DNA of 64,000 bases from Bolinopsis microptera (taxonomy: Eukaryota): contig NC_087073.1 in assembly GCF_026151205.1 (NCBI RefSeq), forward strand, positions 19,292,658 through 19,356,657. The letters are read 5' to 3'. Numbering within the stretch: position 1 is the stretch's first letter; every line of letters begins with the position of its first letter. Below the pieces are notes generated by a model that was not told the origin of the DNA, did not search any database, and saw nothing but the letters and a program-made list of their open reading frames with translations. The position numbers and the translations under genes are program-made. Below are positions 8,796 through 48,745 of the stretch, piece after piece.

Positions 8796-9059
8796 TTCAT
8801 AGAGATCAAGATATCAGAAAATAGTGCGTGATCATGACGTAATCTTATAAAAGATTGTATCGATTGCAAGGCAAGAACAGAAATGTTTCGCAAGATTACA
8901 GTTATCAGCTAGCTTTGTTTCCCAGGAAGCCTGCCGTTAGAAACTTTATGTTAAATCCCATTAGTAGCCGAGTCTATAAAAGTCAAACTTTTATCAATCT
9001 TTATACCTAATAGTTGATAATAATAGTTAATAGTAATATGTTTACAGTATGCACTGAAG

Positions 9060-26400: not shown

Positions 26401-29400
26401 AAACTTGAAAATCGGTTTTACTGAATTTTTCCAAAAAATAAGCATTCTGGGCCTTCATGACCCTCATAGTGCCAATATAAACATGTACATTGCGGTCATT
26501 TTAAGCCCACCTTTGAGTCTCTAAGACCTTCAGAAGCTGAGATACAAATTTCCGATATTCACACATAATATGAAATATGGGCGTGGCTCCACAGGGTTGA
26601 AACTACTAATAAAATTTGCTTACTTTATCAATTCTGATTAATAATGACCTAACAGAGGACCCTGTGTTTAGAAATGTGGTAGACACTGAACTGCTTACTC
26701 GATTTTCACTCAATTTCTAGTGTAGATTTTTTACTCGCGCCCAAGTGAAAATTGGTTTTTCTGAATTTTTTCCAAAAATAAGCATTTTGGGCTTTCATGA
26801 CCTTCATAGTACCAACATAAACATGTGTATTGCGGTCATTTTAAACTCAAGTTTAAGTCTCTAAGACCTTCAGAAGCTGAGATACATATTTCCCATATAC
26901 GCACCTGATATGAAATATGGGCGTGGCTCCACAGGGTTGGGACTAGCGACACAACAGGCGGCCCTCGATTTTTTGAGTTACCAATGACCTATTTAACCCG
27001 ATTCAGCAGCAAAAAACTCTGTACATCGAAGTGCACACTCAACTCCTCCCTGCTACTGGAGTAATTCAATTCAAATACATACATCCATTGATTTAAGGGA
27101 TACTTGAAGGATATGTTCCTATATATCCTTTATTTCGATGCTACATATTTGTTGGGTAAAACTGTAAGATAAACAGTTAGGATTTAAACTTACAGCGTTG
27201 ATGTTTTGGGCTTCAGCTGCAAGTTTGGCCTGATCCACCGCAGCTTCGCCCTCTATTTTCATTGACTCAGCCCGGGACTGAGCCTCTGCTATTGCTTGTC
27301 CGGTACTCTCAACGGCGGCTGAGCTGTTTAGAGGAAACCATTATTGTTAGGATAATCATGGTGATACAGTATCAACTATCAATTAGTATTGAAAAGTAGA
27401 TACATTGCTAGTAAATGTAAATGATGGTAATCTTTGTTTCAGCCCTACATTGCTTGAAGTTCAAGTAGTTCCAAGCGAGATTTCTCTTCTTCAGCCTCAT
27501 CACTAAGTTTCTGTCGTTCTAATCTACCCATCGCCTCCTGGTCCAGTCTTTCTGCTTCATGCCTGAAATATGCCTACTATATACCACAACTAAAACCTAG
27601 ACAATAACCTAAAACCAGTATTAGAGTAAGAGAAAAGGTGGTTAAAGGTTTCCCGTATTCATGATAATTTAATAATCTTAACCAATGCACTACACATAGA
27701 GATTTATTATACGATATTCGTATACTTAATCTTAGTCGATGGCTTTGTAGTTTGTATATTTGGGTAGTAGAATGAAGAGTTCGGAGAAGGACTTCGAAGT
27801 GAGGAAAGCTAAGGCATGGGGAGCGTGTCACCAGATGAAGCTTGTATGGAAGTCGGATATGCGTAGAGATCTCAAGATACGACTGTTCCTGGCTACAGTC
27901 GAGTCCATCCTTCTATATGGCTCTGAAACATGGACTGTCAGCCAGACCCTCACAAAACGTATTGATGGATGTTATACGAGAATGCTGAGGATGGCACTTA
28001 ACATTGACTGGAAAGAGCGGCAGACTAACGCCAAGGTGTATGGACACCTCATCAGAGCATCTGATAAGATAGCTGCACGGAGGATGAGACTCGCAGGCCA
28101 TTTAGCCAGACATGAAGAACTATTGAGTCATCAACTTCTCTTCTGGGAACCCCTTCAAGGACATCGTTGAAGGGGAAGACCACACCTCACATTTATTGAC
28201 ATCCTTCGGAAGTACACGGGGCTTGACGACAGCAAGGAGACTAACAAACTCATGATAGACAGATTTGGAAGAAAACTATCTCTGTTCGGACATTGAAGCC
28301 GCCCTAAGTCGAGTAAGTCGATACTTAATCTATACTTTAACCACTTTTTAACGAAAATTGCACTGCTAAGGAATACAGATAAATAACCTGAAGCACCAAC
28401 CTAGCTGTGGCTTCCTGGGAGTTGGTTGTTATCTCAATGGCAAGTTGTACCGACTTCATGAGAGAGTCCCTTGTTCGCTGATCTACCGGCTCTACCGACT
28501 GTATGTCAATATTTGTGATCCTCAGACGGTTTGCAGGGAAGTGGAGGGAGTCATGGCTACCCAGGATGGATTCGTTTATTATTCGTGCAGAATGCTGAAA
28601 ATAACGTGGCGTTACCCTTACGCTTGGGGAAATAGAATATCTCAAAAATTTGAAACTTCACGATCAACTGCCTTGGAGAGATGAAATCCTGCTATTGATA
28701 GATGAGCACGATTCAACAGTTTACGGTATCAAAAAATTTACTTCGCCCTATCAAAATCATTCACCCTATTAAAACCAGAGTGCATTGTTCATACTACTCA
28801 CCTTATGAAAGTCATCAAAAGGTACAGCTGCAACAGCTCCTCTAATCTTGGAAGCTATGGATTTACAAGCGTCTCCGACAAAGTCCGGCACTGAGAACAG
28901 TGATTCCGAGTCACATTTGTAAGTAGGGGAATCACTTGCTGGTAACTCAAATTGCCTGTATGAGGATGAGTACAAAAGATTGTGGAGTACAGATTCGCCG
29001 TTTAGTAATGAGAGTGGTTTGAATAAATGCCATGCGTATTCAATATTATCAATCTATGACATTAATTGTACAACAATCGGGTATTCCAGATCAATTATCA
29101 TATTGAAAAAGTCATTTCACAGATATAATCTATGTTGTATCATTGATCATCCAGTGGGATAGTTGTTTGATTACTTAAAATAATCTGACTCCTACCAATT
29201 GTAACAGAGCTGCAATGAAAGTCTGGCATGATCAGAAGTCTCCACAGTAAATACATCCGTCATAAAGTCTGGTCCGAGTGAGAGGTCGAGGGTCCTGACA
29301 ACATTGGGTCGTTTTGGCTGGCCTCCAGATAAACTGAGTTGCGTGAAATGTTCGTCCGGTCCCAGCATGACTAAGTCAGGTCCAAATATCACCCTGAAAT

Positions 29401-32400
29401 GTACAGTTTAGTTGCATCTGATGGCTTAATCTAATATCCTTAATACAATACAGAAATACCACTCACTTCTGAGTTCTGAGAGGCCGTGAATTAAAATGTG
29501 GGTACAAAATTAAATTAAATTATGTACCTTAATTCCCAAAAATTTGGGCGACCAAAAATTTGAGCGGGCCTCTCGCCCAAATTTGTTGCAGACCAAATTT
29601 ATTGCATAAATCTTTTCCGTCTGCTAAATTTTTTGCTAACCAAACTTTTGGCATTTGGCCTGTGGCCCTGAAATCTATAGAAAGATGGCTTTTTCTTCAT
29701 ATCCAAGTGAAATAATATTTGAAATTTTAGTTTTCTAATCTGTCATTCATGGCTTGACCAAGTAAAAGGTTTATATTTTAAATGAATAGAAATAACTGGA
29801 ATAGCTAACAGCTACTAATAAAACAAATGGCTAGAGGTACAGATAGCTAGAGATTTAAACAAGATCTGCAAATGGATTATCATCCACCGTAAAGTCTGAT
29901 CTACAAGCATCAGTTATACCCGATTTCTCAAAGCCTTTCCTTATGTCATCTGGCCTCCCTTTTAAATAAACAAAAAGTTCGTTGATCCAACGAGCGTGTA
30001 CATCACGGATCACTGTCAAGCGGGTATCAATTTTCACATTGTCTGATGAAACTCCTCCATTGAGCTGACACACTATGTTTTTCGCGTACCAATCTTCGTA
30101 CTTATTGTGCATGACTTTCTTAGCCAGTCCATTGATAGATATGTCCAGGGGCTAAAGAGAGACTAAATATCACTATTGTATATCTATCATTTTGTACTGT
30201 GCCATCATCACTGTATTTTTTAGTAGTTACTGGGTAACTGGGCAGATCGTAAATTTCATAATGTGAAACAACTCAGACTACCACCTACATGCTTAAAATT
30301 GAAAGCAAAATGACTGGAATAATAAGGAATAATAATGAACTAAGGCAAATATCTAACTAAAATTTTAGTGGAAAATCGTTCATTTTTCGAAGAATTTGTG
30401 CCCAAATTTTCGGTCGCCCAAATGAGTTCAAATTTTCTGCCCAAATTTTTCGGGCTCAAATAAATTGTGCTCAATATAATGGCACACAAATTTTTGGGAA
30501 CTGTTTGTTTGTTTGTTTGTTTATAGAACCCGTCCCCAATCTCGTATCGGAAAATGACTAAACTCAGGTCTGAGTGTGAATACGGGTGGTACCTGCAAGA
30601 GTGTTCATTAAGCATTTAGAGTTCTGTAAAACTGCAGTTACAATTGTGCTAGAGTATTTTTAGTATATACGATTGGTATCAGATATGTATCCCTACATGC
30701 TTCCAAAATTTGTAAAGCCGTAGTACATACATATCACATTACACCGGAGCCTACACAGTGCAATCTCCTCCAGTCGATCTGCGCCGCATATGTTTATATA
30801 ATTATAAGCGCGCGGCGCAGACTGGAGGAAACCACACTCTGCAAGTTCGATCCAGTGCAATGCTACATGTACGTACTACGGCTTCATCTCCAACTTTCTG
30901 CACAATGTACTGGAATGTTTTGAAAGAAAAGAAAGAACAAAAAAAAGTGATATATATAAACAAAATCAGCGATTTAATGTTAGCCTTAGGAGGGTAACTT
31001 TAATTCCCTGGTTTCTAAAATCAGCTTTTTAAAAAAAAATAATAAAGTATGTAACGTCGATACCAAACCGATTATTGAGCGATAATAACTGAGTAGTTGA
31101 TTCCTGGGTTGCGGAGTCATTCAGATGTTCCAGTTTTCGAATGTGATTCTTGTTCAGTTCTTGACCAGAAGTGTCTAATGAAGTAAGTCAGACAAGCAAA
31201 CTCTTCCTTAAATGCTGATATAAGTCGTCTCAATCCCAGAAATTATGAAGATGACCCAGTGTAAAAGTGCAGAAATCGGCCGAAAATAACAAAGACTAAA
31301 AACAGTTAAAAAGTGACAGGATTCAAACACAAGGAAAATTAATAACTTAGAGCGTAATAAGGAATATCTCCAAACGGAGTTTTCTGAGAGGGTGAGAGGT
31401 TCTTTAATTAGAGCTAAATTTTAAGATAATCATTTTTGGGAACTAAGGTACACCGAATAATTAAATTTATAATTAATAACATTCGTCGCGTCGCGCGAAA
31501 TGTATTACTCAAAATGAGATAGGATTAGCGCGTTCCGTAAAGTTATTTGGTGCGCGTTAAATTAGGCTTAGAACGAGCAAGCAAGGCCAGGATGTATATT
31601 TCATCGAGTCAGAAATGTGCAATTTACATGTGCGTGTGTGTGTCACACAATCCCAAGCTTCTCTTTCGCTAGTGATTATTACCCACAGAAACATGAAAAC
31701 AGCACTGTGTGAGTGGACACCATGGCATGGTGACCATGATGATGACGATAAGGACAGATCATTATCGTGCACTTGTACTTGCTTGACTATACTGTGGAGT
31801 GAGTGTGGCTAGCTCCACATTATCGCTATTGTTCAACGTTGTGATTCTTGTCGACTGGAGAGAGGCAATGCGCGCTGCCGATGTAAGAGAGAATGTACCA
31901 TCTTGTCGTATAAGATATCAGTTTCATAACGGGGCGGGTATCACTGCGTGGTTACGTGTATACACGTGACACAACACGTGACCAGATCTACGAGTGTCTT
32001 ATTGAATATCATGCTGGCTGCTGCATATTATCATCCTCATTCTGGGCTCCATAATCATTGTTAGAGTGATCCTGTTCCCTTTCTTAGTCGCTGTGTTCTG
32101 CTGTGTAGTGTACTGAATTGTCATGAGTTGTTCAGTTTATCACCTGTTTTCTGTAGAGACATTAGTCATTACACACAGTTTGATATTCGTTTCATTATCA
32201 AAATAAGGAAATGAACTTAAATCAACTTCCGTCTACATCAGGAGGACAGAGAAAACCACACGGTGCGTACTTTGTAAAGTGTACCGTTAAACATACACTG
32301 ATTTATGTCTGTACTACTTACTCCTTGGAAGAAGGATCAAGAGGGCTTGCTTTGATCTCGATACATTTCTACGTAGTTACTTTTACTTTGGGCGATCATC

Positions 32401-35400
32401 AGTCAACCATCGACTTTTACTTCTTATCGATCGTGCCGCAAAACCAATCAGTTGTAATAGTTCTAGATAACTTTACGTGGTATATTCAAATACCCAGCCA
32501 TTGATAATATATCACCCTACTAATTTCAGAAGAGCGGAGAATACAGTGGTTACTAGCAGCAGGAAAAGATATCCTCGCTAACTATTCTCCATCTAACAAG
32601 ATAAGCCCTGTAATGATACCTCCTGTCCCTAACTTGTCCCCCTACATTGACAGATATCAAGAGGGAGCTGAGTTGAGCAGCAACAACAAGTCAAATCAGC
32701 AGAGGCAGCGGGATTATGAGGCCGAGGTTGTGGTTTATAGGGCACTGGAGGGACTGAGGGGGAATGATGTAGTAGTTCTCCACAGTTTGAAGTATACTCA
32801 TGGTGATTATAAGTTAATAAGTTGTTTTGATCTACCGAGGCTTATTGAAACTATCAGCTTATTGCACCAGTATCATGTGTTTGTGGATGATGTTCACAGT
32901 GAAATGTGGATGAACAGGGTGCAAGAGTACAGCGACTTGATTGAAACTTTGAAAAATTTATCTGCTAATAAAACTGTTTGGTTAGCATGTGATCGGATAC
33001 AGGGAAATGGTGCATGTAAACTAGGAATCAATACGAAAAAGTTTGATTCAGAGAGATCAGCTGTTTTTCACGCTCTTCTGCCCACACAAAGCCCCGGTCA
33101 TTTTATTCATGGACCAAGAACGGTGTTTCATGTTTTAAATCACTGGAAAATGAAATTGCAGTTCTTTATCCCACCCTGAAAAATACATTCAAATCGGCGA
33201 TTAAGGACATGCTAAGTGATTTGTCTACCAATTCTGAAACAGAGATCGCATTTTGTTCGATAGGGAAGAGTAACTCTGCTGAATGGCCAACGGTTCTCAT
33301 CCTCCACAAACTGTTCCGTGACTATGAAATGCAGCTGAGTTTGCTTTATCAGGCAATTTCCAGAGCTAGGGTGTACTGTTCAGTCATATTGTATCCAGAA
33401 GAGGGTATAACTATACAAGATTCCAGATCTTTCGAACAATTCAAGAGTGTTTAAATCAAAAATCTAGATGTCAAAACCTACATGAATTTAAAAGAAATAT
33501 TGCTGTTCTTGTAAGTACAAGACTTCTCGACCGCATTTGGTGAACTTTGTACGGAAATAATTTATTAAAACTTGTACACAATTATCTGCTCTTTAGTTAA
33601 TCAAAAGTTTTGATTCAAAACTGTTAGGTAAGCATGTGACACTATGTATTAATTTACCGTATTAATCATTATTATAATCTGAAATCTTCATGTTTTACAG
33701 TGCTAACAGTTGGATAATGCCATACCTCACGTACCAGAATTTAGGGCGGATCTTTGGACACAGATAAGCCTACAAATAAATGTCTTTAATTCTTTCATCC
33801 GCCTAATGTAAAGAACGGGATTCAAAGCTGCATTCAATACCACAAAAAACATGTTAGATATGCAAAGCCAATAATATGACATGAATCCGTTGGAGTTGAA
33901 AATAAGTTCAGGATTTTTGTAAATCTTTACAGTTATGACAAACATGAGACCATTAATGAAAGCCGGCAAATTACACACCAGGAACAGCAAAGTAAAGTAA
34001 AATATCGTCATTGATGCTTGGAATTTTTTGTCTGAGGACACCATGCTAATACCGGTCTGGCCTTGTGATTGTCACTACAAATGAAACACTTATCAAAAGG
34101 GGAGGAATACCAGTGGTACACCAGTAGTTTATATCATACACTAGACCGACTAGAGCATCATCAGATCGTAATATACAGAATGGGTTAAGTTTTGTATGGA
34201 ATGTTGGTTTGTTTAGAAAGACTATATTCAACCTCCCTGCGTTAATATTATAACGAATGCTGAAACATTGCGAGACAACCGCTTGCAGCTTAGAAATTAC
34301 GTCACATGTATGTAACTGACCCCTAGTGAAGTCACAGGTGATATTTACTTATCACATATTTATTTGAATCGGAACTGTATCGTCGTCAAGTTTTACAGGA
34401 AGGAACAACAGAAACCAGACGGATTGGAACCAGCTTTGTTTACTGGTTAATGTTTACTCAAGTATTTATACATACAATTATATAGAATAGTTATATACCT
34501 AAATCTGCTAATATAAAACCATAATAACTCTAAAAATATACACTTCACAAAATTATGGACCTGGAAGTAAGACTAAATACTTCAGAGCTTAATACACAAA
34601 TCAAAACAAAATTCTAGAAGACCGACGGTCTTGTGTTGAAAGACGAATGTGATTTAGAAGCTTATCAAAAAATTAAAATCTTAGCGAGCCACGAATCCAA
34701 AAATCCAAACAAAACTCTGTCTTAACACATTTCAAACAACAGTTTTGTCAACACTACACACTTTGCCTCCTTTAATGAAGTGTCTCTTATCTGGCTCGTC
34801 GTTTGATCTCTTCTTGAGTTCTAAAACAAGCTTTTGCTGTTCGGCACGTTCCTCTGGAGACCTATCCGGACTGATGAATACTTTACCGAAATGCTCCGAG
34901 CTACGGAGATTCCTTGCTCTAGTCAAAATCTGCTGCACGATTGTGGAGCTCGTCAAAGTCACCTTAACAGGTCTATCAGCCACCTGTTTCTTATCCTTGG
35001 ATTTTATCAAACCAATTCTGCTAGCTTCTATTTTTGGCTTTTCACCAAGTTCCAACAACACTTGACCGACCCTGTCACATAACAGCTCACCTTTCTCTTC
35101 TTTAAGACCAAACAACATCAGATTCCGACTTCGGTCTCCTTCTGCTACAACATCCTTAATGACATTCTTCAAGATGTTTCTATCCGAATCCAACAATGGA
35201 CCTGCTGTTGAGGTTTTTGATTCCTTTACCGCGGCGCTGTATGTCTTTAACTCGGATTTCACAGTATTCTCAACTGATGCTACAACCTCAGATTTCAAGT
35301 AATCAAGCTGCTCGTCTTTGGCAGCTAGCAGCTCTTTCTGCAATACAACTATTTTCCCCTGGCTGTCAATTACATCGGAGTGCAATTTCTGGTTATACTT

Positions 35401-38400
35401 CTCCAGCTGATCAATGTACAATGATTGCCTATACATAATTTTTAACGCAGAATTGAGACTCTGAGCCATGACTTCCCTAGTGATTTCTCTTCTACCAATG
35501 AAAGCCTGGGCTACACACGCGTTAACATGACTTGATTTAACAAGCGCGAGAGTTTTCCGGATCCATTCAGCTCCATCATCTCTCACTTCATCAAGCTTAT
35601 AACCCACGTATTTCTCAGATTTATACATCGCACAACCACGGCACCGGTTAAACAAGCAAGTCTTATCAACGTAATGATAAGTAACTGATAAGCGAGTAAC
35701 AACGTATTGAAAAGTGTATTTACTGAACTGAAAAGAATCACAAATTATCAAAACTATCGCTGTTTAGTTCGTATGAGAGTGAACTTTCGAAAACAAAGCA
35801 TGGAAATTCTAAAACAATAGCATTAGCCATGTACACATGAAAAAGACGTATCTCGAGGCGACCCGCCTCGAGATACGTCGTTTTCATGTACTGTTCAGGA
35901 CTAGTGACTACCATCAATCTTAAGATTTCGCACTTGTTTATCTTGGGGCGACTGCGGCTGCAAACCATCACTACTGACTTGTTCATTTCATTCAAACGCT
36001 CAACACAACTCTTCTTCAAAACAATAGCATTATTTCAGATCCCCAGAAATTTAAGTCTTGGGTTACCTGACCAGTATGGATTTATACTTTTATTCACAAA
36101 GTGCTCACTGCTCAAGTGCTAAGTCTCTATAGACGGCAACCAATGAAGTGATTGAGATGTCAGATGACACTCACTTGGAGGTTGAAAGTACAAGCTAATG
36201 CACTTGAAGACTGGTTTAAACCTCATAGAACAGACTAGTATCTTTGTTTAGAAGAAGTTTGATTGTATACTATAAGTGCACATCAACACCTGCAACCAGT
36301 GGTGAAAGAAGAGAAAAAGTTCTGATGTAAATTAATTGGGTACTTAGCTAATTTGAGGTTCGAAGGCCGAAGCTATACTTTTTATCTCAATCTCAACACT
36401 TATTTTACTTCGGACATTCCAACAGCCACATTGTTACACAAGTGTGTAACCAGCCAATTACAGGAAGCCGAAGGATTCAATTATACATTAGGCCAGTGAC
36501 GGTTAAGGTAGTGTGTACCATACTTTCTTCGCCCGAGACTTTGCTGCAATGGGCAGCTCCTCATTTAACCCTCACACCCGATTTCTCGAGTATTTGGCTG
36601 ATTGGACCGGGGGGCTGCATAGACCACTCAGGATCCTTAGCTGAGCGTCGACGACGCTCACCCCACGGCTAGTGACAGAGTCGGGAATCGAACCTGGTAC
36701 CTCAAGCAATACCAGGCGGATTAACCAACTGAGCCACTAAGCCGTAAAATAATAATATATATTATATAATACTTACTAATATAATTATTACTTTTGTTAG
36801 CAAGCATAACACGTATATATGTATATATATTATAATGATATTTGGTGTTCTATAATCTCACCTAGAAACTTTACTCTTGTAGTCGAACACTTGAACAGCA
36901 GAGTTGTGGGGGACCTGATAAGCGATAACTCTCGTCTTATCCCTCGGTTTCGTGGTCACCTCTTTGCTTTCACCACCACGGAGTTTCTCTCTCCCAACCA
37001 GCGGGTTCTGAGCAGCTGCTAGAAGCTTCTCTATCTGCTCCGGCAACTCTTTGGAGTACAGTTCCTCGTCTTGGTTGTTAATGTACGTCTCTCCGATAAC
37101 TGCACGAACCTGGAATGTCGTATATCGTTTAAAAAACATTTTGAAATTTAAATCAAGGGTTAAATGTTTCCCTAAAGTTCACGTCATCGCAAACAGAAAG
37201 ACTGAAAGGTGAAATAGCAGTAGTTCTGAATCAAAATCTCACCTTTCCAGTCTTAACATTTCTAATATAAACACCCTCATTTTCATCCAATGGCATGGCT
37301 TTTCTTCTGGAGACAATCTCCATCTCGACTGTAGGGCAAAAGTCTTGTGGTCCTTTCACCATCCATCTGTCTCCTGGGGTTCTTTGGACATCCTGTAATA
37401 AAAATACCAGTCCTATTGTGTTTATAAATTTATTGATTTTATACTTTACAAATATCTGGGTGTAGTGTTCTATTTTTTTCTCTGATATTTTACAAGACGG
37501 AGTCAATTTCAACATTTCTGTAACTGCCACAATATAGGTTTTATAAATCATAGTCAAAACATGAAGTGTTTGTAAGTTATTTAAATTCTTACGCCATCTG
37601 TGAATGGAAGAATAGCCCTGAGAACAACAGCCTCATCCTCTAGAAGAATACAGATATCCTGCACTTTCCCACTTTCTAACGTTTCGCCTGGATGCAAGAA
37701 AAACTCCTTTTCTCCCTGAAATAAAATTGGTCAAACCTCGTCGGATATAACAACCATTCGATAATTCAACATACTCCACCTAAATTCCGATGCAGAAACT
37801 GCTGTTATCGTCTGAATGATAAGGTTTTAGGAAATATTATACAGATGTTTGATAGGAAATTCCTTACCCTGACGAGTTTCTTGCTTCCAAACTGGTTTTT
37901 ACCATCAGCCCCGATTGGATCTAGAATAATACAGAACTGTCTGTTAGTAAGTATGGTTACTGACACTGATTCTTTTACTTCTTCATACACGTCAGGAATA
38001 AACGACTCAGCATCCTGTAATTTTAGTTATGTATGAATTGTCATCGGCTTTAAGTTTCCAATACATACAGCACAATCAAGGTTGAAATGTACAAATTTGA
38101 TGGTATGCTTATGATTCAGCTATCGATACCATATTGTAATATCTAAGCAAACTACTAAAAGTTTGATTACTTTGATAGTTTACCTTTTCAGTGACCAGCC
38201 ACTCCTCTCCAGCCCTTCTCTTCTTCCTGAATCTATCAGTAAAAGTCTGCTTAGCCACAACATGGAGAGCCAGCTTGTTGTTGAGTTGGTGTGCTGTCAG
38301 AGTGCCAACTATTTTCTCGTGAGGTCCCGGCAGATATGCTCCTGGTTTGCTGACCAACCATACTTCTCCGTACACCCTGCTCTTACCTTCCCTATCCTGT

Positions 38401-40939
38401 GATGAACAAGCTGATCAGTGATCACGTGACTAAACAATGAGTAAACATTATACCAGACATGTCAGTGAAATAGCTATTGGTTAGATTAGGTTGAGAATTT
38501 AAAATATGTACATACTATAATCAACGGATTTTGCTTTATTGTTATGAAAAGAAAACAAATAATCTAGTGCAAATAAATAACAAGATGGTAGATATAAACC
38601 TTGCAGTCTTTTTTAGCTCTGAGTTTGAGTGCAGTGTGAGGTGTGTAATAATAATAATAATAGGATTATGGCCACATGGCCATCCCGACAAAACTTGAAA
38701 CCCAACTGCACTCTACGCTATTGCAGTTCGCACAATATTATCAAAAAGAAAAATGTTCCTATCCGGAACATTTAATGATTAATTATTTTTAGGACGTTAA
38801 CATGTAGTTCTGAATTTAACAATCAAGAAACATTGATTCCTCGGTATTTAGCAATCAATGGGTTATTAGACATGAAATGTGCATATGAATCATGCTCACA
38901 TGTATTTATTTTTGACATCAAGGTTTCGCTGAGATCCCAGAAGTGACCCTTTGACGATGCTCCACTCGCTATCATGTGCTGAGTGGAGTTCATCCCCACT
39001 AGCATCTCTGATTCCAGATATTGCAGCCCTAATCTTGCGCTTGGAGTTCATATAGCTGTAGAAAGCTTTTGGATTTATTTTTAGCTGGGCTGCTGCTTTA
39101 TTCTCATAGCATATCATGAGCTGCTGTTGCTTCTTCTCGTAAGCACTCTGCTGATGTAGTGCATGATTCAGGTTTTTTGATGTCGGGTCGTTTTCAAAAA
39201 TAGACCACAGTTTTTCTTTTAGCTTCCGTGCCTTGATTAGACATGGTTTGTCCCAGACCGATCGTGATTTTATTGCACCTGCACGATTTATCCTCAATTT
39301 GACGACTGGGACAGCTTCAGCAATGGTGTTGGCATTGGCCTGAATCAGATTCCAGTGCTCTTCAATAGTCAAGTCATGATTGGCACTCCATTGCAGCGGC
39401 CCTGCTGTATCAATGATTAGATCTTTGTTTGCTTTTGACCAATTTTTCTTCTGTTGAGTCACATACTCATCATGGTTAGCAATTGACCACTTACTGATAA
39501 TTCCCACATGGTCTGATTTTCCCAGCGGTGCGGTTATTTGAACTTCCTGAAATATGGCGGGGTCTGAAGTCATAACATTGTCAAGAGTTGACGATTGCAC
39601 TGTTGTTAAAACCTTCCTTCTGCGAGTTTTAACATCGTCTCCGATAACCCAACTGAGATCATGTTTTGCGAAAAAATCAAGATAGCACTGTTGAATCAGG
39701 AATTTTTGATTAATTGAATTATTCGGACATTTAACTACACCTAAATCCCACACAACATCAGGAAGATTGAAATCTCCCATCATGATTAGTTCGGTATTAG
39801 GGGCTAGATTTTCAATCGCTACGGACAGATTAGATAACATTGATTGACACTTATCGATTGTTAATGAAGGGGATCGGTATATAACAAATAAGGGATTATA
39901 GTTGCCACGATCGTCTCAACTATCTCAACCTCAACTCGGGGAATGTACGTTCCTGGACAGATTGGGTGTTGAAACATCTCAAACTTGTGTTAAATTATAT
40001 TGAGCTCAAACGTTTACTGAATCGGAAAAGTAGGAAACAAATTTCAACTTTCAAAAACGTACCTGGTCCCTCAAAAAGCCACTGATCCAAAGCAAGTCGT
40101 TCTATTTCTCCGTCCTTGAAGTCCATGACGGCTTCTAACCGCAAAGCCGAGTCACGAGGAACAGCTTTAAGTTTGGTTACAATTTCTTGAAGTGCCTCTC
40201 CTGGATAAAGTGGGAAGGGTTCACCTGTCAGCCTCACTTCAAAGTCGCCGTGTCTTAGTTTCACCTGGTTTTATTTCTTCGTTTATCAATAACGAAACTA
40301 CACACATTGAATCGACAATTCTTAACAATTAAATTTACATTTTGAATGATAAGGTGGCTACCAGCGAAAGTTAAAAACTGTACGACTGAATATGATTCAG
40401 ATTAAAATCGTCTGATTACTAGTGAACTTACCATTAAAATAAATAATACAGATAATAAAATTAGAAAACTGAAAAGTAAACCATTATTAAAATAGACTTA
40501 AATGAAGTTATAATAAATAATGAAACCTGTCCAGATGATTCAAGGACAACTTCTCCAGCAGAGTCTCTAATGACTGGATGACGAATCACACAGTAATGGT
40601 TTGGTGGCACTGTAACCATTTTTTCTGGTCCCTCGACAACTTCTTCATTGTCCTGAAAAATGAGCATTGAGTCCCTGCAATATATAGCTGAGTAAATTCG
40701 CTGTGAAAGCACCATTTGAATTGAAGATACAGTTAACAATAAGAAAATGTTGCTTGATTAAGTAAAACTCCGACATCGCTGTCATACTGTGACATAAAAT
40801 GAGTTCAACTTACTTGTCTAACAAAAGTTGTTGGGCCAGTAAGGACCTTTGTGATGTTACTACTTTGGTCAAGTATGTGTAGATAGTAGAACGGTGGTAT
40901 CCTAAAAATTCCCCGAGCATCTGGAACAAGTTTCTTCAT
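23405..40939 (-). CDS. MVP: Major vault protein (MVP) gene, at least 17 coding exons
   Basis: Exons in plus coordinates, listed 5' to 3' on the minus strand: 40814-40939 ([42 protein letters not shown]), 40527-40660, 40064-40261, about 39880-39952, about 38600-38650 (the junction between these two is unresolved), 38184-38396, 37868-38014, 37593-37725, 37243-37392, 36862-37109, 29206-29393, 28802-28955, 28401-28594, 27449-27562, 27194-27323, 23714-23902, 23405-23545. The translation aligns along its full length with remembered vertebrate MVP. Examples are [159 protein letters not shown], the coiled-coil region, and the C-terminal [24 protein letters not shown]. Stop TAA at 23405-23407 overlaps AATAAA. 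Confidence 0.9.
23942..27056. repeat. 3.1-kb near-perfect palindrome: about 1.42-kb arms (23942-25363 and 25644-27056) around an about 280-bp loop
   Basis: 27056 backwards is the exact reverse complement of 23942 forwards (ttactccagtagcagggaggagttgagtgtgcac...). Each arm contains about 2.7 internal tandem copies of an about 360-bp unit (tagtcccaaccctgtggagccacgcccatatttcatat...). The palindrome occupies about 95% of MVP intron 23903-27193. Confidence 0.9.
27760..28290 (+). mobile_element. LINE ORF2 C-terminal fragment in an MVP intron
   Basis: ORF 27760-28170 (...[10 protein letters not shown]...[23 protein letters not shown]...[15 protein letters not shown]). The frame continues after one stop into [37 protein letters not shown], the typical LINE 3' tail. 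Confidence 0.65.
29527..30506 (-). mobile_element. Internally deleted pogo/Tigger-like DNA transposon remnant
   Basis: The transposase fragment at 29855-30160 on the minus strand ([27 protein letters not shown]...[40 protein letters not shown]) resembles the DDE_1 C-terminal region (QPLD.GII..FK..Y...W). The flanks 29527-29660 and 30380-30506 are inverted subterminal repeats (ttcccaaaaatttgggcgacc...aatttgggc motifs). Exact ends and TSD are not resolved. Confidence 0.45.
32613..33454 (+). CDS. Unknown gene or pseudogene: two ORFs in different frames (32613-33179, 33209-33454), with a possible spliced leader exon near 31830-32200 and an acceptor at 32525
   Basis: ORF1 [26 protein letters not shown] is weakly NERD-like. 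The ORF2 C-terminus [16 protein letters not shown]...[22 protein letters not shown] resembles SF1-helicase motifs V/VI (NVALTRAR-type). No P-loop is seen. The frames differ, so there is either a frameshift or an unrecognised intron. Confidence 0.3.
33727..34231 (-). pseudogene. Rhodopsin-like GPCR fragment or pseudogene, TM3-TM7
   Basis: ORF 34046-34231 ends ...[10 protein letters not shown] (the E/DRY motif), followed immediately by a stop. ORF 33727-34044 carries hydrophobic helices and NPVLYIRR (NPxxY). It is unrelated to the LDLa-GPCR at 4551-7403. Confidence 0.45.
34732..35751 (-). mobile_element. L1-type (type II) LINE ORF1 protein gene, solitary
   Basis: 339 aa. Central coiled coil ([41 protein letters not shown]). 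RRM-like [17 protein letters not shown]...[34 protein letters not shown]. This matches the L1 ORF1p pattern (RRNNLRIIGVPE...RPIIVKF...KILKAAR). No ORF2 downstream. Confidence 0.6.
36440..36740 (-). mobile_element. tRNA-derived SINE, copy 2
   Basis: Minus-strand tRNA-like head (GGCTTAGTGGCTCAGTTGGTTAATCC...CCAGGTTCGATTCCCGA) followed by a body sharing AGCTAAGGATCC and GAGGGTTAAATGAGGAG with copy 1 at 9060-9290. Confidence 0.5.
38896..39840 (-). mobile_element. LINE ORF2 apurinic-endonuclease (EEP) domain fragment in an MVP intron, same strand as MVP
   Basis: 314-aa ORF with [10 protein letters not shown] (GDFN) and KSDHVGI (SDH), the motifs of APE-type LINE endonucleases. It is continuous with 39841-39900 upstream. 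Confidence 0.75.
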
Positions 40940-42656: not shown

Positions 42657-44747
42657 TTAGTCTGCGTCATCTGCGTCATTTCTTTGTATTATACAACTTC
42701 GGCGGGTAATATTTCTCCATCCTTTTCGATCTGCAGCCAATCTTCTCATACAATCAATCGTGAGTCCATTACGATCCAATCTCTGCTCAGCATCTTCAAT
42801 AAATACATCATTTAAGCTCTTCCTAGGCCTGCCTCTTGATCGTTTCCCATGCTTGGGTTTCCATTCAAGTAGATAGTTAGGTAACCGATCTTCAGGCATT
42901 CTACTGACATGTCCAAACCAACGTAGCCGTTTTGTTGCTATTATGTCAGTAAGAGCAGTTATTGAAGCCCTTCTTAAAACATCTTCATTTCTTACTCGAT
43001 GGAACCACCTCACTCTCAGGATTCTGCGTAAGCAGTACTGATGGAAAGACTCTAATCTTCTTGTCTGCACTTGAGTCGTGTTCCATATCTCACTTCCATA
43101 GGTCAGAATGGTAAGAACAGCTGCGATGTAGATTCGCACTTTGTTGTTAATGCTTATGTTCTTATTCTTCCAAATGTTATTGAGTTGGTTAAAAGCTCCG
43201 GTTGCTTTTCCAATCCTGACACTTATTTCTTTATCGATCTTGCCATCCGATGTAATTTTGGCACCCAAATAAGTGAATTGAGTGACCTGCTTTGCAGAGT
43301 TTCCATCGACAGTAATATCTATGGTCCTATTCTCTGGGAGTGGGTGCTGCGACGTATCTTTCCCAATTACCATGATCTCTGTTTTCTTTGCGTTCATCTT
43401 TAAACCCCCAAGCCCACAGTATTTCGCAATATTGTCCGTTGTTTCTTGCAGTCCCTCGACAGTGTCATCCATGCCTGCTATGTCATCAGCATAGTCCAAA
43501 TCAATGACACATTTTTCCGGTTGTCTGGAACTTTGTCTGTACTGAAGAGTAAAACCACGCGATATATTTTTAAACTTCTCGGCAAGTTCTAATCCCCAGT
43601 TAAGTACAAGGTTGAAAATGGGAGGCCCTTGCACATCACCTTGTCCAGTCCCCGAATCGACATCAAACCATCTTGTCAATTCCCCATTGACACGAACTGC
43701 ACTTTCAGTTGCTCTAAAGAACGCTTTGAAAACATTGATGTATTTTGTTGGAAGACCATAATGTTCAAAAGCTTTCCAAATAAAGTCACGATTGATTGAA
43801 TCAAAAGCAGCTTTAAAATCAATAAAGTTTATATACAAAGGGACGTTGAATTCTATACAATTGTGTATTATACAATGAAGGGAGTATAGCTGATCTATAC
43901 AAGAACGGTTTCTCCTGAAACCACACTGATTTTCTCTAAGTAACTTTTCAAGCCCATTACTTAGTCTTTTTAACAACACGATTTGAAATAACTTCGATAC
44001 GGTGGAGCGTAGAGTTATCCCTCTGTTGTTGTTGCAATATGTGAGGTCCCCTTTCTTTGGGATGATGGTGATGATTCCTTTCCTCCAATCACTAGGAATA
44101 TCCTCACTTTTCCATACAGTTTCAAACAAATCTTTTAACCAAGGCAGAAGTCCAGGAGAACCGTACTTTAACTGCTCATTTGAAATTTCATCAATTCCAG
44201 CACTTTTGTAGTTCTTCAACTTCTTGATAGCTTCCTCAATTTCAAACAAGGACGGTGGCTCATCATCATTACTAAGATATTCAAAAGAAAGTACCTTTTC
44301 GTCCTCATCCAATAGAGAGAAATCCACCGCATCTGCTGCTGGCGTCAAGAGTTCTTCAAAATATTCGGCCCAGCGATGTGACTGAGCTTCGGGATCTGAT
44401 ATAAGTGTCCCATTCTTATCCCGCACTGCCGCAGATCTGTTTACTCTCTTGTTTGTAAGGGATTTTATTTTCTGCCAAACATCTCTTTGTTGACCCTGCT
44501 TGGCAGCCTCTTCCAATTCCTCAGCTACTCTAACAGCCCAGGCATTATCATCTCTTTTACAGTTCTGCCTAACAAGACCGTTAATCTGCGAGTACTTAGC
44601 ACGATTCTCAGCAGTACTAGGTTTCTTTTTAATCTCACCTCGTTCTTTTAGGAGATTCTTAGTATCCTTTGAGAGATGTTCTGTTTTCTTTTTCCGGCCC
44701 CTTTCACCCAGAACTTCAAACGAGATATCAGTTATAATGTCTCTCAA
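42657..44747 (-). mobile_element. LINE ORF2 reverse transcriptase, 5' truncated with no EN domain; the RT core plus C-terminal tail are intact
   Basis: 696-aa ORF with GFRRNRSCIDQL, FIDFKAAFDSI, GTGQGDVQGPPIFNL, YADDIAG, then LTYGSEIWNTT...RRILRVRW...LRWFGHVSRMPEDRLP. Confidence 0.9.
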
Positions 44748-45266
44748 TTTCTTCCATTGTTCTTCTAAAGGAGAGTTTCCAAGCTCCTGATCGTTGGTAT
44801 AGTATTTATTTAGTATTTATATGTAGTATATAGTATTTATAGTATAGCAAATACACACTGATTACTAATTTTATAGATTAAAGATTTACGAAACTGAAAG
44901 TTGTTAATTTCCACTCCTACTAATTCCTAAGTATTATTGTTCCTAAGTTTTGTTAAGTTATCAACCTGTAAATTTAACCTATTAATATGACTATCTGTAT
45001 GACTTTCTTGAGCCCAGTAGATAGATTAGATTAGATTAGATTAGATTAGATTAGATTAGATTAAGAATAATGACATAAACATCATCACTAGTTTTAAACA
45101 TTCTTTCTGATTTCCTCATTATCAGAACTGTGAACATTTCACAGCCTTCGTCATTAAAAAACAAACAAATTCTATAACTAACATAATTGTCATAATTTAT
45201 TTACATATAAAAAAGTTTAAAAAGTTAAAAACCGTTAATTTAAAAAATAAATAAATAAAAACAAAT

Positions 45267-46672
45267 TCATGAGATATTTATTCCCTTTCTCTTGGCAACA
45301 CACGGATTTTTATATAAATATTGGACTTGTTGCTTCTTCTTTTCGATATAATTTACACCCTCTATTTTTGCTAAAACTATATTTGACACTTCCCAAAAGT
45401 TGCCTGTGTCTACTAAATTATTAGTCTTTTTAAATTCTTCTAGATTAATTTTAAAATCAATAACAGACACTGAATTTCTAACAAAAGATGGCAATTTATT
45501 CCAAAAGCTGATAACACGCTCTGATAAAAAATTATTAGACAAGGTTTTAATATTTCCATCAATATTGTTAGATTTAGTGCTAACAATTTTATCTCCCGAT
45601 CTACTTAAATTGAAAATATCTTTTCCATACTCAACCAATCCATTTACAATTTTGTAGGCTTCAATCAAATCTCCTCTAACCCGTCTCTCTGCGAGTGTTG
45701 TAATCTGTAAGGCATCCAACCTTTCACTGTAAGGAAGTGTTCCAATATCATCAATAAGGCGTGTGAACCTTCTCTGGACATTTTCCAGTTCAATGATAGT
45801 AGCCCAATTCCCATGGCAGGCAGGTACCTTCTTCAGATTTGAAATGGTCGAAACATATTAAAAGTTGTATTAGTAAAGCAAACAGTATGATTGCATGGGT
45901 TACAAGGAATCTCATTATAAGAGAAATTAATGTTATGAGAAATGTTTATAAAACTATAATAAGACCCCACTTGGAGTATTGTGCTCAGTTGTGGTCTCCA
46001 CCTGCAGGTGGAGACCACAACTGACCACAACTGAGCACAATACTCCAAGTGGGGTCTTATTATAGTTTTATAAACATTTCTCATAACATTAATTTCTCTT
46101 ATAATGAGATTCCTTGTAACCCATGCAATCATACTGTTTGCTTTACTAATACAACTTTTAATATGTTTCGACCATTTCAAATCTGAAGAAGTTAAAACTC
46201 CAAGATCTTTCTCTGCTTCAATACATTCAAGTGTAACACCACTAAATACATATTCTTGAAGGGGATTTTCATTAAATGGAACATGCATTATTTTGCATTT
46301 GCTAGGATTAAACTTTAACAGCCACACATTTTGCCAGTTTTGCAAGCTTTCTAACATATTGAAAGTGCTTTCAGTGTCATTGGCATCCATAATAACTTTA
46401 AGATCATCTGCAAACAGTTTTGATATACCATTAATACAATCAGGCAAGTCATTGATAAAAATGACAAACAATAAAGGACCTAAAACAGACCCTTGTGGGA
46501 CGCCTGATAAAACATCACGAAGGTAGGAATATGCTCCACCAACAAATGTCTTAAATCTTCTTCCAGATAAAAAGTCTTTCACAATATCTAAAGTGTTACC
46601 ACTTATACCCAAATTTCTCATTTTTGTAAGTAGTCTATATATTTTAATACTTTCAACACTACTATATAACAA
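45267..46672 (-). mobile_element. LINE ORF2 RT core plus C-terminal domain, from a different family
   Basis: ORF 45833-46672 carries GVPQGSVLGPLLFVIFINDL and KLFADDLKV (FADD). ORF 45267-45719 carries ERRVRGDLIEAYKIVNG...ISFWNKLP, the typical non-LTR C-terminal region. The reading frame is broken by the internal inverted duplication at 45840-46190. Confidence 0.8.
45840..46190. repeat. Inverted duplication (about 175-bp arms centred on CCTGCAGG at about 46006) inside the LINE
   Basis: 45840-46005 is the reverse complement of 46012-46185 (ataagaccccacttggagtattgtgctcagttgtggtctccacctgcagg|tggagaccacaactg...). ORF 45839-46024 on plus encodes the same peptide as the LINE ORF on minus. Confidence 0.8.
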
Positions 46673-46937: not shown

Positions 46938-48590
46938 ATGTCTAGAATACCAGTTGGCTCAAGACATTACAATCTGAGATATCGAGGGAATTCTGTTAAA
47001 TTCCCCAGCAACGGCTCTTGTCCTACTGATAAATGTTCAAATTGTTTAACTCTATTAAGAGAGAATGATAGTCTTCGTCGGCAAATTTCTTTTCTCTATA
47101 AACAATTATCAGAAAGTGACAGTGCACTCAAAGTTCCCCTCAGCGATGGTTCACTTATCCCTGTATTGCCCCAGGTACCTGATCACTGTGAACATTCTAT
47201 CAATGTTCCCCTCAGTAATAGGTCATCCTCGCATCTTGTTTCTGAGTTAACCCAAGAGCTATCCAAATTAGCAGAAGACAGTGAACATTCAGCAGAAATT
47301 ATCAATTTGGAAAATCCCAAAAACTCTGTAAATGGTGACAATGATGTGACCAACTCTATCAATCCATACCAAGATTTGAGTCGAGGAGTTTTTCAGTTTG
47401 TTGACACTGCCAAGTTAGATATAGAAACCCACTATACTCATAAGTTTAAGAATAGGGCAGTTGCATATTACGGGGACTTTCCCTACGCTTACAATGGAGG
47501 GTTTCATAACACAAGGCCAGTAGCAGACAATCCATACCTAAAGTCTATTCTAGAACGCTTACGCTCACAGTTCCCAAAATTGAAATTCAATAGTGCTATG
47601 ATTACCAAGTATAGAAATGGTCAGCAAGGAATTCCCTTTCACTCGGATGACGAGAGGTCAATTTCACCAGGCTCCATGATCTCCACCATCTCTTTAAGGG
47701 CTACTAGAGTCCTAAGCTTCAGATCCAAACTTAGAGCTCATATTGCTGACCTCACCCTCTCCCATGGTGACATAATGAATATGACCAGACAATCCCAGAC
47801 CAGCTTTGAACACAGCCTCATCCAGGACAAGTCTGAAACCATGAGAATAAGCATTACTCTGCGCCTAATTGATGGCAGCGCAACCTTATCTACTCTGTCT
47901 GATGTTTCCAGTCAAGTTAAGAACACTGAACCCTCGGCCCCTAAGACTAGATCAATAGAACATTCTGGTAAATCTTTGTGTGTCTACATTAGCTCTAGTA
48001 TGTTCTCCAAATTAGAGGGAGAAAAGCTATCGTCCAAACATCATGAGGCACATGTATTCAGCTACCCTGGTGCCACAGCCAATGCAATCAATGAACGGTT
48101 TCAATCAGATGTAAGAAAAGACACTCTTAATACCAATAATGCGAAAAGCATTGTACTTATGTGTGGTACAAATGACGTGGACTCTATCCTGAACAGCCCT
48201 CGCAACATGAGGACTAAACTTCTGTGCCCTGATAGTTTTTCTGGTGATGCTAGAGCTCTTGACTTTACAAACAATTGTATTGAAAAACTTGTACTTTTCC
48301 TTCACAAGTGGGCACCTGGAGCTGATATTAAAATTGTTAACTTATTACCTCGGGAGAGTTTCTCCAGAAACAAGGTTATAACTGATATCAATGAGTGTAT
48401 ATCAAATCTGCAAAGAAAATACACCTATGTAAAACTGCTCTCAACCGAGACAAATCGTTTCTTGTTTAGTGATAAGAAAGGCTTTAGAAAATCGTCATTT
48501 TTTAGTAGTTATGGAGAGGATAATGTCCATCTCAATGATTATGGCATAGTTAAATTAGCAAGGCACTTGAAGTATCATGCACACCATTAG
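46938..48590 (+). mobile_element. LINE ORF1 with SGNH/GDSL-esterase-like C-terminal domain (CR1/L2-type ORF1)
   Basis: 550 aa. Cys-rich N-terminus (CPTDKCSNCLTLL). The C-terminal half has esterase block signatures VYISSSMFS, LMCGTNDV (GxND) and DNVHLNDYG (DxxH). It lies directly upstream of the EN-containing ORF2. Confidence 0.6.
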
Positions 48591-48745
48591 AATACTGCTG
48601 AATACTGACATAACACTCCTACCATCAGTTTTATTTTTACAGTACGACATCCAGACAAATACAACCTGCTTTTATTCTGTTTTTTAGTTTAAACACAACT
48701 TTACAACTTTTATTCATTCCATTGTGAATTAATAAGATTCACAAG

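What the first reader, a model, noticed from the sequence alone, without database searches (positions are those of the whole stretch)
38397..39952. An MVP intron with no recognisable splice signals, a same-strand LINE endonuclease insertion and an (ATT)n tract
MVP coding continuity is excellent everywhere except here. The exon encoding ...[19 protein letters not shown] (about 39880-39952) has no in-phase GT donor after ATII. The next homologous coding block (...[15 protein letters not shown], ending 38600 with donor GTTTAT and leading correctly into [15 protein letters not shown] at 38396) has no AG acceptor upstream: the minus-strand sequence is ggccataatcctattattattattattacacacctcac, and there is an in-frame TAA. 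The residues expected from vertebrate MVP here (about RQNQ) are few, so the gap is small. Three explanations are possible. It could be a non-canonical (AT-AC/U12-like) intron. The intron would begin ATAATCCCTTAT and the 3' side ends ...TTATTAC|ACACCTCAC, which gives phase-0 continuity ...VAT|[11 protein letters not shown]. It could be a recent disruption by the LINE EN fragment at 38896-39840, which sits in the same orientation and could be exonised or impose aberrant splicing. Or it could be an assembly error within the (ATT)n microsatellite.
Basis: partly seen in the sequence, partly recalled or inferred. Interest (0 to 1): 0.6.

Follow-up and report, generated by a model that had tools for sequence, protein, structure and literature searches.

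The report
LINE retrotransposon inserted in MVP exon
The "intron without splice signals" is not an intron: it is a young, truncated LINE retrotransposon, with its own (ATT)n tail, inserted into a coding exon of the major vault protein gene, which interrupts the reading frame in this assembly; this is an ordinary kind of mutation.

Summary
MVP coding stops at ATC (39894) and resumes at ACA (38644). The 1249 nt between them have no usable GT-AG or AT-AC pair.

The interval is not an intron. It is LINE sequence from end to end:
- Endonuclease coding homology starts 3 nt after the exon.
- Homology to related elements stops where the reverse transcriptase should begin; about 1.5 kb is deleted.
- It resumes with the family's ORF2 end and 3'UTR.
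- It ends in CATAATCC-(ATT)n, the same terminus as two independent related copies whose flanks differ.

So the ATT tract is the LINE tail, and the 3' "ATAATCC" is the LINE terminus.

Joining ATII to TPHT restores the four-residue xPxx spacing found in nearly all of more than 100 MVP homologues. A coral, a limpet and a human-like fragment carry this exon uninterrupted. All the other MVP introns in the window are GT-AG and all the other exons are open.

The best reading is a recent sense-strand LINE insertion, probably CR1/L2-like, into exon 4. It puts a stop codon 10 codons downstream. U12 signals are at chance level.

Not tested: whether an intact allele exists, and what the mRNA looks like. 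Interest is low.

The parts
39894..39952 (-). MVP exon 4, 5' part. It encodes (G)[19 protein letters not shown]. The acceptor is tccag|GA, and the phase-1 junction comes from exon 3, which ends at 40063.
   Evidence: tblastn with human MVP gave 81% identity. Splice-site scan. Sequence reading.
38645..39893 (-). The whole inserted element, 1249 nt. It is a sense-oriented, 5'-truncated, RT-deleted LINE copy. If the final C belongs to the target, the element is 1248 nt and has a 1-nt duplication.
   Evidence: Co-linear homology to related LINE copies L001, L002 and L006 from 39890/39891 down to the tail.
38971..39891 (-). LINE ORF2 fragment: the C-terminal half of the AP-endonuclease plus the EN-RT linker. 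The frame is open and ends at ...ELHSAHD, where RT would begin.
   Evidence: Pfam Exo_endo_phos_2 at 1.2e-7. 77.5% nt identity to L001 over 39890-39562. Protein hits of 58% to Pleurobrachia and 96% over 27 aa to Bolinopsis P0143, which then continues into RVT_1. 331 open codons.
39861..39863 (-). First in-frame stop codon (TAA) of the MVP reading frame, 10 codons into the LINE. The predicted product is 171 MVP residues plus [10 protein letters not shown].
   Evidence: Translation. Exon lengths.
38671..38970 (-). End of LINE ORF2 and the 3'UTR, joined directly to the EN-linker part. About 1.5 kb of RT present in L002 (8507-10060) is missing at the 38971|38970 junction.
   Evidence: Alignments to L002 10040-10340 and L006 7575-7870. 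Local score 31-33 against 11.9 +/- 1.8 for dinucleotide shuffles, z about 11, with the tail excluded.
38645..38670 (-). LINE 3' terminus CATAATCC (38670-38663) followed by the (TAT/ATT)n tail. The tail ends one base before MVP codon ACA.
   Evidence: The same terminus occurs in L002 (CATAATCTTT(ATT)6A|aacttgg) and L006 (CATAATCTTA(ATT)n|gtattgcc), with unrelated flanks. TRF. The pattern is found twice in the window against 0.01 expected.
38600..38644 (-). MVP exon 4, 3' part. It encodes [15 protein letters not shown] and has donor AAG|gtttat.
   Evidence: Homologues read xPNQA[LI][KR]LRA[RK]KE...
38184..38396 (-). MVP exon 5 ([15 protein letters not shown]...LVTEK), reached through a normal 203-nt GT-AG intron (38397-38599).

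Best explanation
A non-LTR retrotransposon (LINE, most likely of the CR1/L2-like kind that ends in a short tandem repeat) integrated by target-primed reverse transcription into coding exon 4 of the MVP gene. It lies in the same orientation as the gene, between codons ATC (Ile) and ACA (Thr).

The copy is 5'-truncated inside the endonuclease domain and lacks the reverse-transcriptase region. It keeps the family's 3'UTR, its CATAATCC terminus and its (ATT)n tail.

The original 104-nt exon is therefore split into a 59-nt half and a 45-nt half, 1249 nt apart. As assembled, the MVP frame runs into a stop codon 10 codons into the element. This allele should give a 181-residue truncated product, or an mRNA degraded by nonsense-mediated decay.

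Shown here: the identity and limits of the element, the single-exon state in other animals, and the absence of splice signals.

Inferred: the integration mechanism, the recency of the event and the loss of function.
For: 1. 5' limit. LINE EN coding homology to L001 (77.5% nt) starts at 39890. The LINE frame [10 protein letters not shown]... matches L001's IFVIYRAPSL... from 39891, which is 3 nt after the exon's last codon.

2. Internal structure. Homology to L002 and to Bolinopsis P0143 stops at ...ELHSAHD (38971), where P0143 goes on into RVT_1. It resumes with the ORF2 end and 3'UTR of L002 and L006, z about 11 against shuffles.

3. 3' limit. CATAATCC-(ATT)n is the shared terminus of L002 and L006, and their flanks beyond the tail are unrelated. 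Other LINEs in the window also end in microsatellites: (ATT)6 at 12997-13018, and (TAATC)7 below 45267.

4. Removing exactly 39893-38645 gives [12 protein letters not shown]. This has the same spacing as nearly all of the >100 MVP homologues inspected (AT[IV]I-xPNQ-A[LI][KR]L) and keeps the conserved Pro.

5. The exon is uninterrupted in a coral (L003 6271-6381), in a limpet (L004 ORF 4531-4884), in cnidarian-like exon ORFs and in a human-like fragment.

6. All the other MVP introns modelled are GT-AG. Every other exon is open, including the one first missed at about 28924-28793.

7. Signs of youth: 331 open codons in a non-functional fragment, and a perfect repeat tract.
Against: - No target-site duplication is visible (0 or 1 nt), so one classical hallmark of retrotransposition is missing.
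- No empty-site allele, transcript or close orthologue could be retrieved. Two metagenome scans for the empty site found nothing, and no protein in the databases is closer than 58-70%.
- The copy lacks RT, so either it was mobilised in trans or the deletion arose during or after integration. Which of these happened is not known.
- The hairpin expected before the tail is not statistically supported.
- Loss of function is inferred. A cryptic in-frame splice cannot be excluded.
Confidence: 0.92

Rival explanations
1. The insertion is real, but the gene is rescued at RNA level by cryptic canonical splicing. One route uses the weak donor TTT|gttata (39886) and the acceptor ctcag|AGC (38618) to remove 1267 nt as a newly born intron. 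The product reads ...ATIIPYLAKKDCK..., six residues shorter. Another route uses an in-phase donor inside exon 4a to skip straight to exon 5.
For: It is the only in-frame, stop-free GT-AG pair across the gap. Three of the gene's 13 genuine donors also begin GTT (gtttca, gtttat, gttggt), so GTT donors are used in this organism.
Against: - The donor lacks the exon-side AG, and the acceptor has a poor pyrimidine tract.
- The product loses TPHTALKLR, a segment conserved in almost every homologue.
- The alignment score is 71, against more than 200 for real junctions.
- There is no transcript evidence.
Confidence: 0.05
2. The interval is a U12-type AT-AC intron, beginning ATAATCCC at 39899 and ending ...TTAC at 38645. 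It would join VAT to TPHT.
For: The terminal dinucleotides AT...AC can be placed there and would keep the frame. Both ends contain TCC-rich motifs that loosely recall ATATCCTT and TCCTTAAC.
Against: - There are 4 of 9 mismatches to each consensus (ATATCCTTT and TTCCTTRAC, as printed in PMC6259924). Thousands of equally good sites occur on this strand of the window.
- The 3' "motif" is the conserved LINE terminus.
- The splice would delete the two Ile residues present in essentially all homologues.
- No intron exists here in coral, limpet or the human-like fragment.
- The whole interval is transposon sequence.
Confidence: 0.01
3. The interval is an assembly artefact. The LINE copy was joined into the MVP exon by a mis-join at the (ATT)n microsatellite or by a chimeric read, and the real locus is intact.
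For: Microsatellites and young repeats are typical sites of misassembly. No reads are available to check this.
Against: - Both junctions are clean to the base.
- The element has the orientation, 5' truncation and 3' tail expected of a genuine integration.
- Its removal restores the exon exactly. A mis-join would not be expected to do that at both ends.
Confidence: 0.03
4. An older lineage-specific intron once lay between ATII and TPHT. A LINE later overwrote it, and its splice sites decayed, so MVP would be a long-dead pseudogene.
For: None specific. It would explain the lack of splice signals.
Against: - No non-LINE sequence remains between the exon halves.
- All other exons are open and their splice sites are canonical.
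- The LINE fragment itself is still an open frame.
- Other animals have no intron at this position.
Confidence: 0.01

Closest known systems
CR1/L2-type ("stringent") LINEs, which end in a 3'UTR recognition element plus a short tandem repeat rather than poly(A)
   Same: - AP-endonuclease ORF2, strong 5' truncation, a family-specific 3'UTR, and a terminal microsatellite abutting the target.
- The relative P0143 carries RVT_1 and a C-terminal ...LERRMRGDLIE... motif. From memory, that motif is typical of CR1-like ORF2.
- The literature describes CR1 tails as a hairpin plus a terminal microsatellite used for target-primed reverse transcription (PMC5729268). Other LINEs end in non-poly(A) repeats, for example TAA repeats in the I element (PMC3747384).
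   Different: - The tail unit here is ATT, not the amniote CR1 8-mer.
- This copy has lost its RT region.
- The hairpin is not statistically supported.
- No clade-level phylogeny was made, so the CR1/L2 assignment is a lead and not a result.
Disruptive LINE insertions into coding exons, such as human L1 insertions in F8 exon 14 that cause haemophilia A (from memory)
   Same: A 5'-truncated, sense or antisense LINE copy lands in an exon and introduces premature stops in an otherwise intact gene.
   Different: The organism is different (apparently a ctenophore), and so is the LINE type. There is no poly(A) tail and no visible target-site duplication. The phenotype and zygosity are unknown.
U12-type AT-AC introns
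   Same: Only the possibility of placing AT...AC at the ends in frame.
   Different: [quoted passage not shown]
Transposon-derived new introns (introner-like elements, or intronisation of insertions)
   Same: A mobile element sits inside coding sequence, and one weak in-frame GT-AG pair brackets it.
   Different: The element brings no splice sites at its ends, it would not be removed precisely, and there is no evidence of splicing. From memory, known introners are DNA-transposon-like or short elements that create or co-opt GT/AG at the insertion site.

Membership tests
LINE (non-LTR retrotransposon) insertion | Encodes or derives from an AP-endonuclease/RT ORF2 | tested here: met
   Pfam Exo_endo_phos_2 at 1.2e-7. 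Homologues carry EN and RVT_1. The RT part itself is deleted in this copy.
LINE (non-LTR retrotransposon) insertion | Co-linear with full-length family members up to a defined 3' terminus; flanks differ between copies | tested here: met
   Order EN, linker, [RT missing], ORF2 end, 3'UTR, CATAATC-(ATT)n, as in L002 and L006. Sequence after the tail is unrelated in all three copies.
LINE (non-LTR retrotransposon) insertion | 5' truncation with an intact 3' end | tested here: met
   The copy starts in the middle of the EN domain (profile position 21 of 117; L001 residue about 100).
LINE (non-LTR retrotransposon) insertion | Target-site duplication flanking the element | tested here: not met
   The 5' flank ...ACTATAATC and the 3' flank ACACCTCAC... 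share at most one C. The repeated ATAATCC is exon codons plus one LINE base at the 5' end, and the LINE's own terminus at the 3' end. From memory, short or absent duplications are common for CR1-like elements, so this does not exclude membership.
LINE (non-LTR retrotransposon) insertion | Empty (pre-insertion) site exists in orthologues or other alleles | tested here: inconclusive
   Distant orthologues (coral, limpet, human-like fragment) have the uninterrupted exon. No allele or close relative could be retrieved.
CR1/L2-like stringent LINE | 3' stem-loop immediately before a microsatellite tail | tested here: inconclusive
   The tail is present. A 7-bp hairpin ATGGCCA/TGGCCAT can be drawn and a 5-bp one in L002, but fold z-scores are -1.7, -0.8 and +1.4.
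U12-type (AT-AC) intron | 5' splice site matching RTATCCTTT | tested here: not met
   4 of 9 mismatches. 1803 equally good AT-starting sites on this strand of the window. Consensus taken from PMC6259924.
U12-type (AT-AC) intron | Branch site TTCCTTRAC about 10-20 nt from the 3' end | tested here: not met
   The best 9-mer has 4 of 9 mismatches and lies at distance 22. 5331 equally good sites in the window.
U12-type (AT-AC) intron | Splicing restores the conserved protein | tested here: not met
   The AT-AC choice removes II, making the segment two residues shorter than in nearly all homologues aligned.
U2-type GT-AG intron | GT donor and AG acceptor in compatible phase that preserve homologous coding sequence | tested here: not met
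   Only one in-frame pair exists, and it deletes TPHTALKLR. No AG lies between the in-frame TAA (38668-38666) and ACA.
Conserved MVP intron position | Intron at the same position in orthologues | tested here: not met
   One continuous exon or ORF in Desmophyllum, Patella, cnidarian-like exon ORFs and a human-like fragment.

The most novel reading that the evidence does not exclude
The filled allele may still make working MVP, because the LINE copy is removed from the pre-mRNA. Removal could use the cryptic GT-AG pair at 39885/38619, or some non-canonical exact excision. Either would be a retrotransposon insertion caught in the act of becoming a new intron in a deeply conserved exon.
Probability: 0.05. 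Interest if true: 0.55.

Novelty: new member of a known kind. Interest (0 to 1): 0.15.

Why it matters
For annotation: gene predictors will either break MVP here or invent a non-canonical intron. The right description is "exon 4 interrupted by a LINE insertion".

For biology: it is a candidate null allele, possibly heterozygous, of a gene that has been lost repeatedly in animal evolution. It also shows that a LINE family with (ATT)n tails has probably been active recently in this (apparently ctenophore) genome.

Neither point is surprising. The main value is in removing a false lead about non-canonical splicing.

Tried and rejected
- **U12 scoring.** Donor-like and branch-like matches are at chance level.

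- **ATAATCC at both ends as a target-site duplication.** Rejected. The 3' copy is the conserved LINE terminus. Collapsing the two copies would leave a 19-nt out-of-frame ATT tract in the exon.

- **26-nt direct repeat (39874-39899 versus 38841-38866, 77%) as the duplication of a nested insertion.** Rejected. The second copy lies in 3'UTR sequence conserved in L002 and L006. About one such match is expected by chance (my own rough estimate).

- **Helitron or terminal-inverted-repeat transposon.** No terminal inverted repeats were found. I saw no A|TC...CTRR|T ends when reading the sequence.

- **Hairpin before the tail.** Not significant.

- **Other copies of the element in the window.** Only the tails match.

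- **Looking for the same species or an empty site.**
  - The LINE ORF and P0143 are not on record.
  - The closest MVP is 58% identical.
  - The closest exon-4 match in the representative library is 70% identical.
  - Two metagenome scans for the empty site found nothing.
  - A related species' contig (L007, 86% nt in a neighbouring gene) exists. Its MVP region lies beyond the 10-kb reach of the tool.

- **Rfam on the interval.** Nothing above noise.
Full report
**1. What is in the sequence**

The MVP gene lies on the minus strand from about 40939 to about 23450 (tblastn with human MVP recalled from memory, used only as a probe).

Around the finding, the minus strand reads as follows:
- ...tccag|GA ACG TAC ... 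GCA ACT ATA ATC, giving (G)[19 protein letters not shown] at 39952-39894.
- It then continues CCT TAT TTG ... to a TAA at 39863-39861.
- The next block homologous to MVP is ACA CCT CAC ACT GCA CTC AAA ... TGC AAG|gtttat, giving [15 protein letters not shown] at 38644-38600.
- That block is preceded by ggccataatcc(tat)5tac, which has an in-frame TAA at 38668-38666 and no AG.
- The gap is 1249 nt (39893-38645).

Tandem Repeats Finder reports a perfect trinucleotide tract at 38646-38662. ORF 38896-39840 (-) matches Pfam Exo_endo_phos_2 at 1.2e-7.

**2. Where the coding sequence must be joined**

I inspected more than 100 MVP homologues from animals, protists and metagenomes. In nearly all of them, exactly four residues, usually xPNQ, separate AT[IV]I from A[LI][KR]L.

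In the window, ATII + TPHT + ALKL has exactly that spacing and keeps the conserved proline. The homologous message therefore requires removal of exactly 39893-38645, or equivalently the same interval shifted one base. Its ends are CC...AC, or CC...TA after the shift. Neither is GT-AG, GC-AG or AT-AC.

**3. The interval is a LINE from its first base to its last**

*5' side.* A metagenomic LINE copy (L001) aligns at 77.5% nucleotide identity from window 39890 down to 39562. In the LINE frame the window reads [22 protein letters not shown]... from 39891. This matches L001's IFVIYRAPSLSLNNCKSMLDNL.... LINE coding sequence thus begins within 3 nt of the last MVP codon, in the middle of the endonuclease domain. 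This is a typical 5' truncation.

*Middle.* Protein homology to related elements runs to ...[27 protein letters not shown] and stops at 38971. The hits are Pleurobrachia "sb/" models at 54-58%, ENA contigs at 38-76%, and Bolinopsis microptera LOC134825470 (P0143) at 96% over 27 residues. P0143 continues from that point into an RVT_1 domain, while the window does not. In the related full-length copy L002, about 1.5 kb (8507-10060) separates this point from the end of ORF2.

*3' side.* Window 38970-38671 aligns with the ORF2 end and 3'UTR of L002 (10040-10340) and of L006 (7575-7870). With the terminus and tail left out, the local alignment score is 31-33 against 11.9 +/- 1.8 for dinucleotide shuffles, z about 11.

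*Terminus.* The three copies end in the same way, and the sequence beyond the repeat is unrelated in all three:
- Window: ...gtggCCATAATCC-T(ATT)5A|C ACA CCT
- L002: ...ctgtCATAATCTTT(ATT)6A|aacttgg
- L006: ...ctgtCATAATCTTA(ATT)n|gtattgcc

So the ATT tract is the element's own tail, and the nearby ATAATCC is the family's 3' terminus.

Other LINEs in the window also end in microsatellites:
- The RT ORF at 11391-12767 (+) is followed by (ATT)6 at 12997-13018.
- The copy at 46672-45267 (-) is followed by (TAATC)7.
- A CATATTCCTC(TTA)n end lies at 18289-18312.

The published description of CR1-type tails is a hairpin plus a terminal microsatellite used for target-primed reverse transcription (PMC5729268). 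Other LINEs are described as ending in repeats other than poly(A) (PMC3747384). Both fit this anatomy. However, the hairpin drawn here (ATGGCCA/TGGCCAT) is not statistically supported.

**4. There is no intron at this position elsewhere**

- In the coral Desmophyllum pertusum, one exon (L003 6271-6381) encodes [35 protein letters not shown]. Its boundaries are the same as those of the reconstructed exon here.
- In the limpet Patella vulgata, one ORF (L004 4531-4884) reads through [44 protein letters not shown]....
- Short exon-sized ORFs of cnidarian type, and a human-like genomic fragment, also show the uninterrupted exon.

**5. The rest of the gene is intact**

All the other 13 introns I modelled have GT-AG ends. 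Donors are, for example, gtaagt, gtacgt, gtttat and gtgaga, and acceptors are mostly (y)cag. Introns are mostly 110-260 nt, with one of 7.5 kb and one of 3.3 kb.

All exon cores are open. The exon first missed by the human probe is present at about 28924-28793.

The LINE fragment is still an open frame of 331 codons although it cannot be functional, and the repeat tract is perfect. Both points suggest a recent event.

**6. Consequence**

Exons 1-3 plus the first half of exon 4 total 513 nt, which is 171 codons. Read-through adds [10 protein letters not shown] and then a stop. The predicted product is 181 residues, compared with 893 for human MVP.

The stop lies far upstream of many exon junctions, so nonsense-mediated decay is expected. 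This is an inference from the general model and was not tested.

Skipping the 104-nt exon would shift the frame.

The only in-frame, stop-free GT-AG pair across the gap (39886/38618) would replace TPHTALKLR with PYL. In-phase donors inside exon 4a could in principle skip to exon 5, at the cost of about 20 conserved residues. None of this can be judged without RNA data.

**7. The U12 hypothesis**

I used the consensus printed in PMC6259924: donor ATATCCTTT, branch TTCCTTRAC(YCY).
- The proposed donor ATAATCCCT has 4 of 9 mismatches. 1803 AT-starting sites on this strand of the window do as well.
- The best branch-like 9-mer within 45 nt of the proposed 3' end has 4 of 9 mismatches. 5331 sites do as well.

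The TCC-rich look of both ends has mundane causes. At the 5' end it is codons ATA-ATC plus the first LINE bases. At the 3' end it is the LINE terminus.

**8. Target-site duplication**

None is visible beyond a possible single C. The repeated ATAATCC is not one (see section 3), and collapsing it would leave an out-of-frame 19-nt ATT tract.

From memory, blunt or near-blunt integration is common for CR1-like elements. It is nevertheless a hallmark that is not met here.

**9. Source organism**

- The LINE's nearest named relatives are from Pleurobrachia and Bolinopsis.
- A neighbouring single-ORF LDLa + 7tm_1 receptor gene (4551-7403, -) belongs to a large family. Its named members are Mnemiopsis leidyi (45%) and Pleurobrachia.
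- An ENA contig (L007) is 86% identical in nucleotides to that receptor gene and partly alignable in its flanks.

The window is therefore very probably from a ctenophore whose own proteins are not in the databases searched. The closest MVP protein is 58% identical, from a spider, and no ctenophore MVP appears among the 120 best hits. No allele, transcript or close orthologue of this exon could be obtained.

**10. Verdict**

This is an ordinary, apparently recent insertion of a truncated LINE into a coding exon. It is not an unusual intron.

- Confidence that the interval is a LINE insertion in an exon: about 0.92.
- Still open: whether the insertion is fixed, heterozygous or (least likely) an assembly artefact, and whether any cryptic splice rescues the frame.
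- Interest is low. Novelty is a new instance of a known kind.

Noticed in passing
window 46938-50308 (+): A 550-aa ORF (46938-48590) carries a Pfam 2OG-FeII_Oxy_2 (AlkB-like) domain at 2.3e-17 and a weak GDSL esterase match at 1.4e-4. A 520-aa AP-endonuclease ORF (48746-50308) follows directly on the same strand. This looks like a LINE whose ORF1 combines an AlkB-like oxygenase with an esterase. From memory, esterase ORF1s are known in CR1/L2-type LINEs, and an AlkB-like domain there would be unusual.
   Followed up: no
window 11391-13018 (+); 45025-46672 (-); 42657-44747 (-); 18289-18312 (+): Several other LINE copies are present. The RT ORF at 11391-12767 ends in (ATT)6 at 12997-13018. The RT/C-terminal ORFs at 46672-45267 end in (TAATC)7. 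A 696-aa RT ORF (42657-44747) lies just upstream of the MVP start. An orphan CATATTCCTC(TTA)n end lies at 18289. Microsatellite-tailed LINEs are abundant in this genome.
   Followed up: partly
window 3930-7403 (-); L007 9796-13087: A single-ORF receptor gene (LDLa repeats plus 7tm_1, 950 aa) has a C-terminus that runs into a 42-nt tandem repeat (VRNMETVQCEPGDE units, about 3930-5100). It belongs to a very large family with Mnemiopsis and Pleurobrachia members. A related species' contig (ENA ERZ25073835 ctg56809) is 86% identical in nucleotides.
   Followed up: partly
window 29394-36861 (MVP intron of 7.5 kb): The one very long MVP intron contains two sizeable ORFs with no Pfam match: 34732-35751 (-) of 339 aa, and 32613-33179 (+) of 188 aa. 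They are probably further mobile-element remnants.
   Followed up: no
one search hit list (MVP N-terminal 337 aa): The best MVP match is only 58% identical (a spider). No Mnemiopsis, Bolinopsis or Pleurobrachia MVP appears among the 120 best hits, although proteins of those species are in the database. Either ctenophore MVPs are poorly annotated or the gene is missing in those species. This bears on whether this copy is on its way to being lost.
   Followed up: no
window 39874-39899 and 38841-38866: A 26-nt direct repeat of 77% identity brackets most of the LINE ORF. The second copy lies in 3'UTR sequence conserved in L002 and L006, so it is probably a chance match between AT-rich sequences and not a duplication.
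   Followed up: yes
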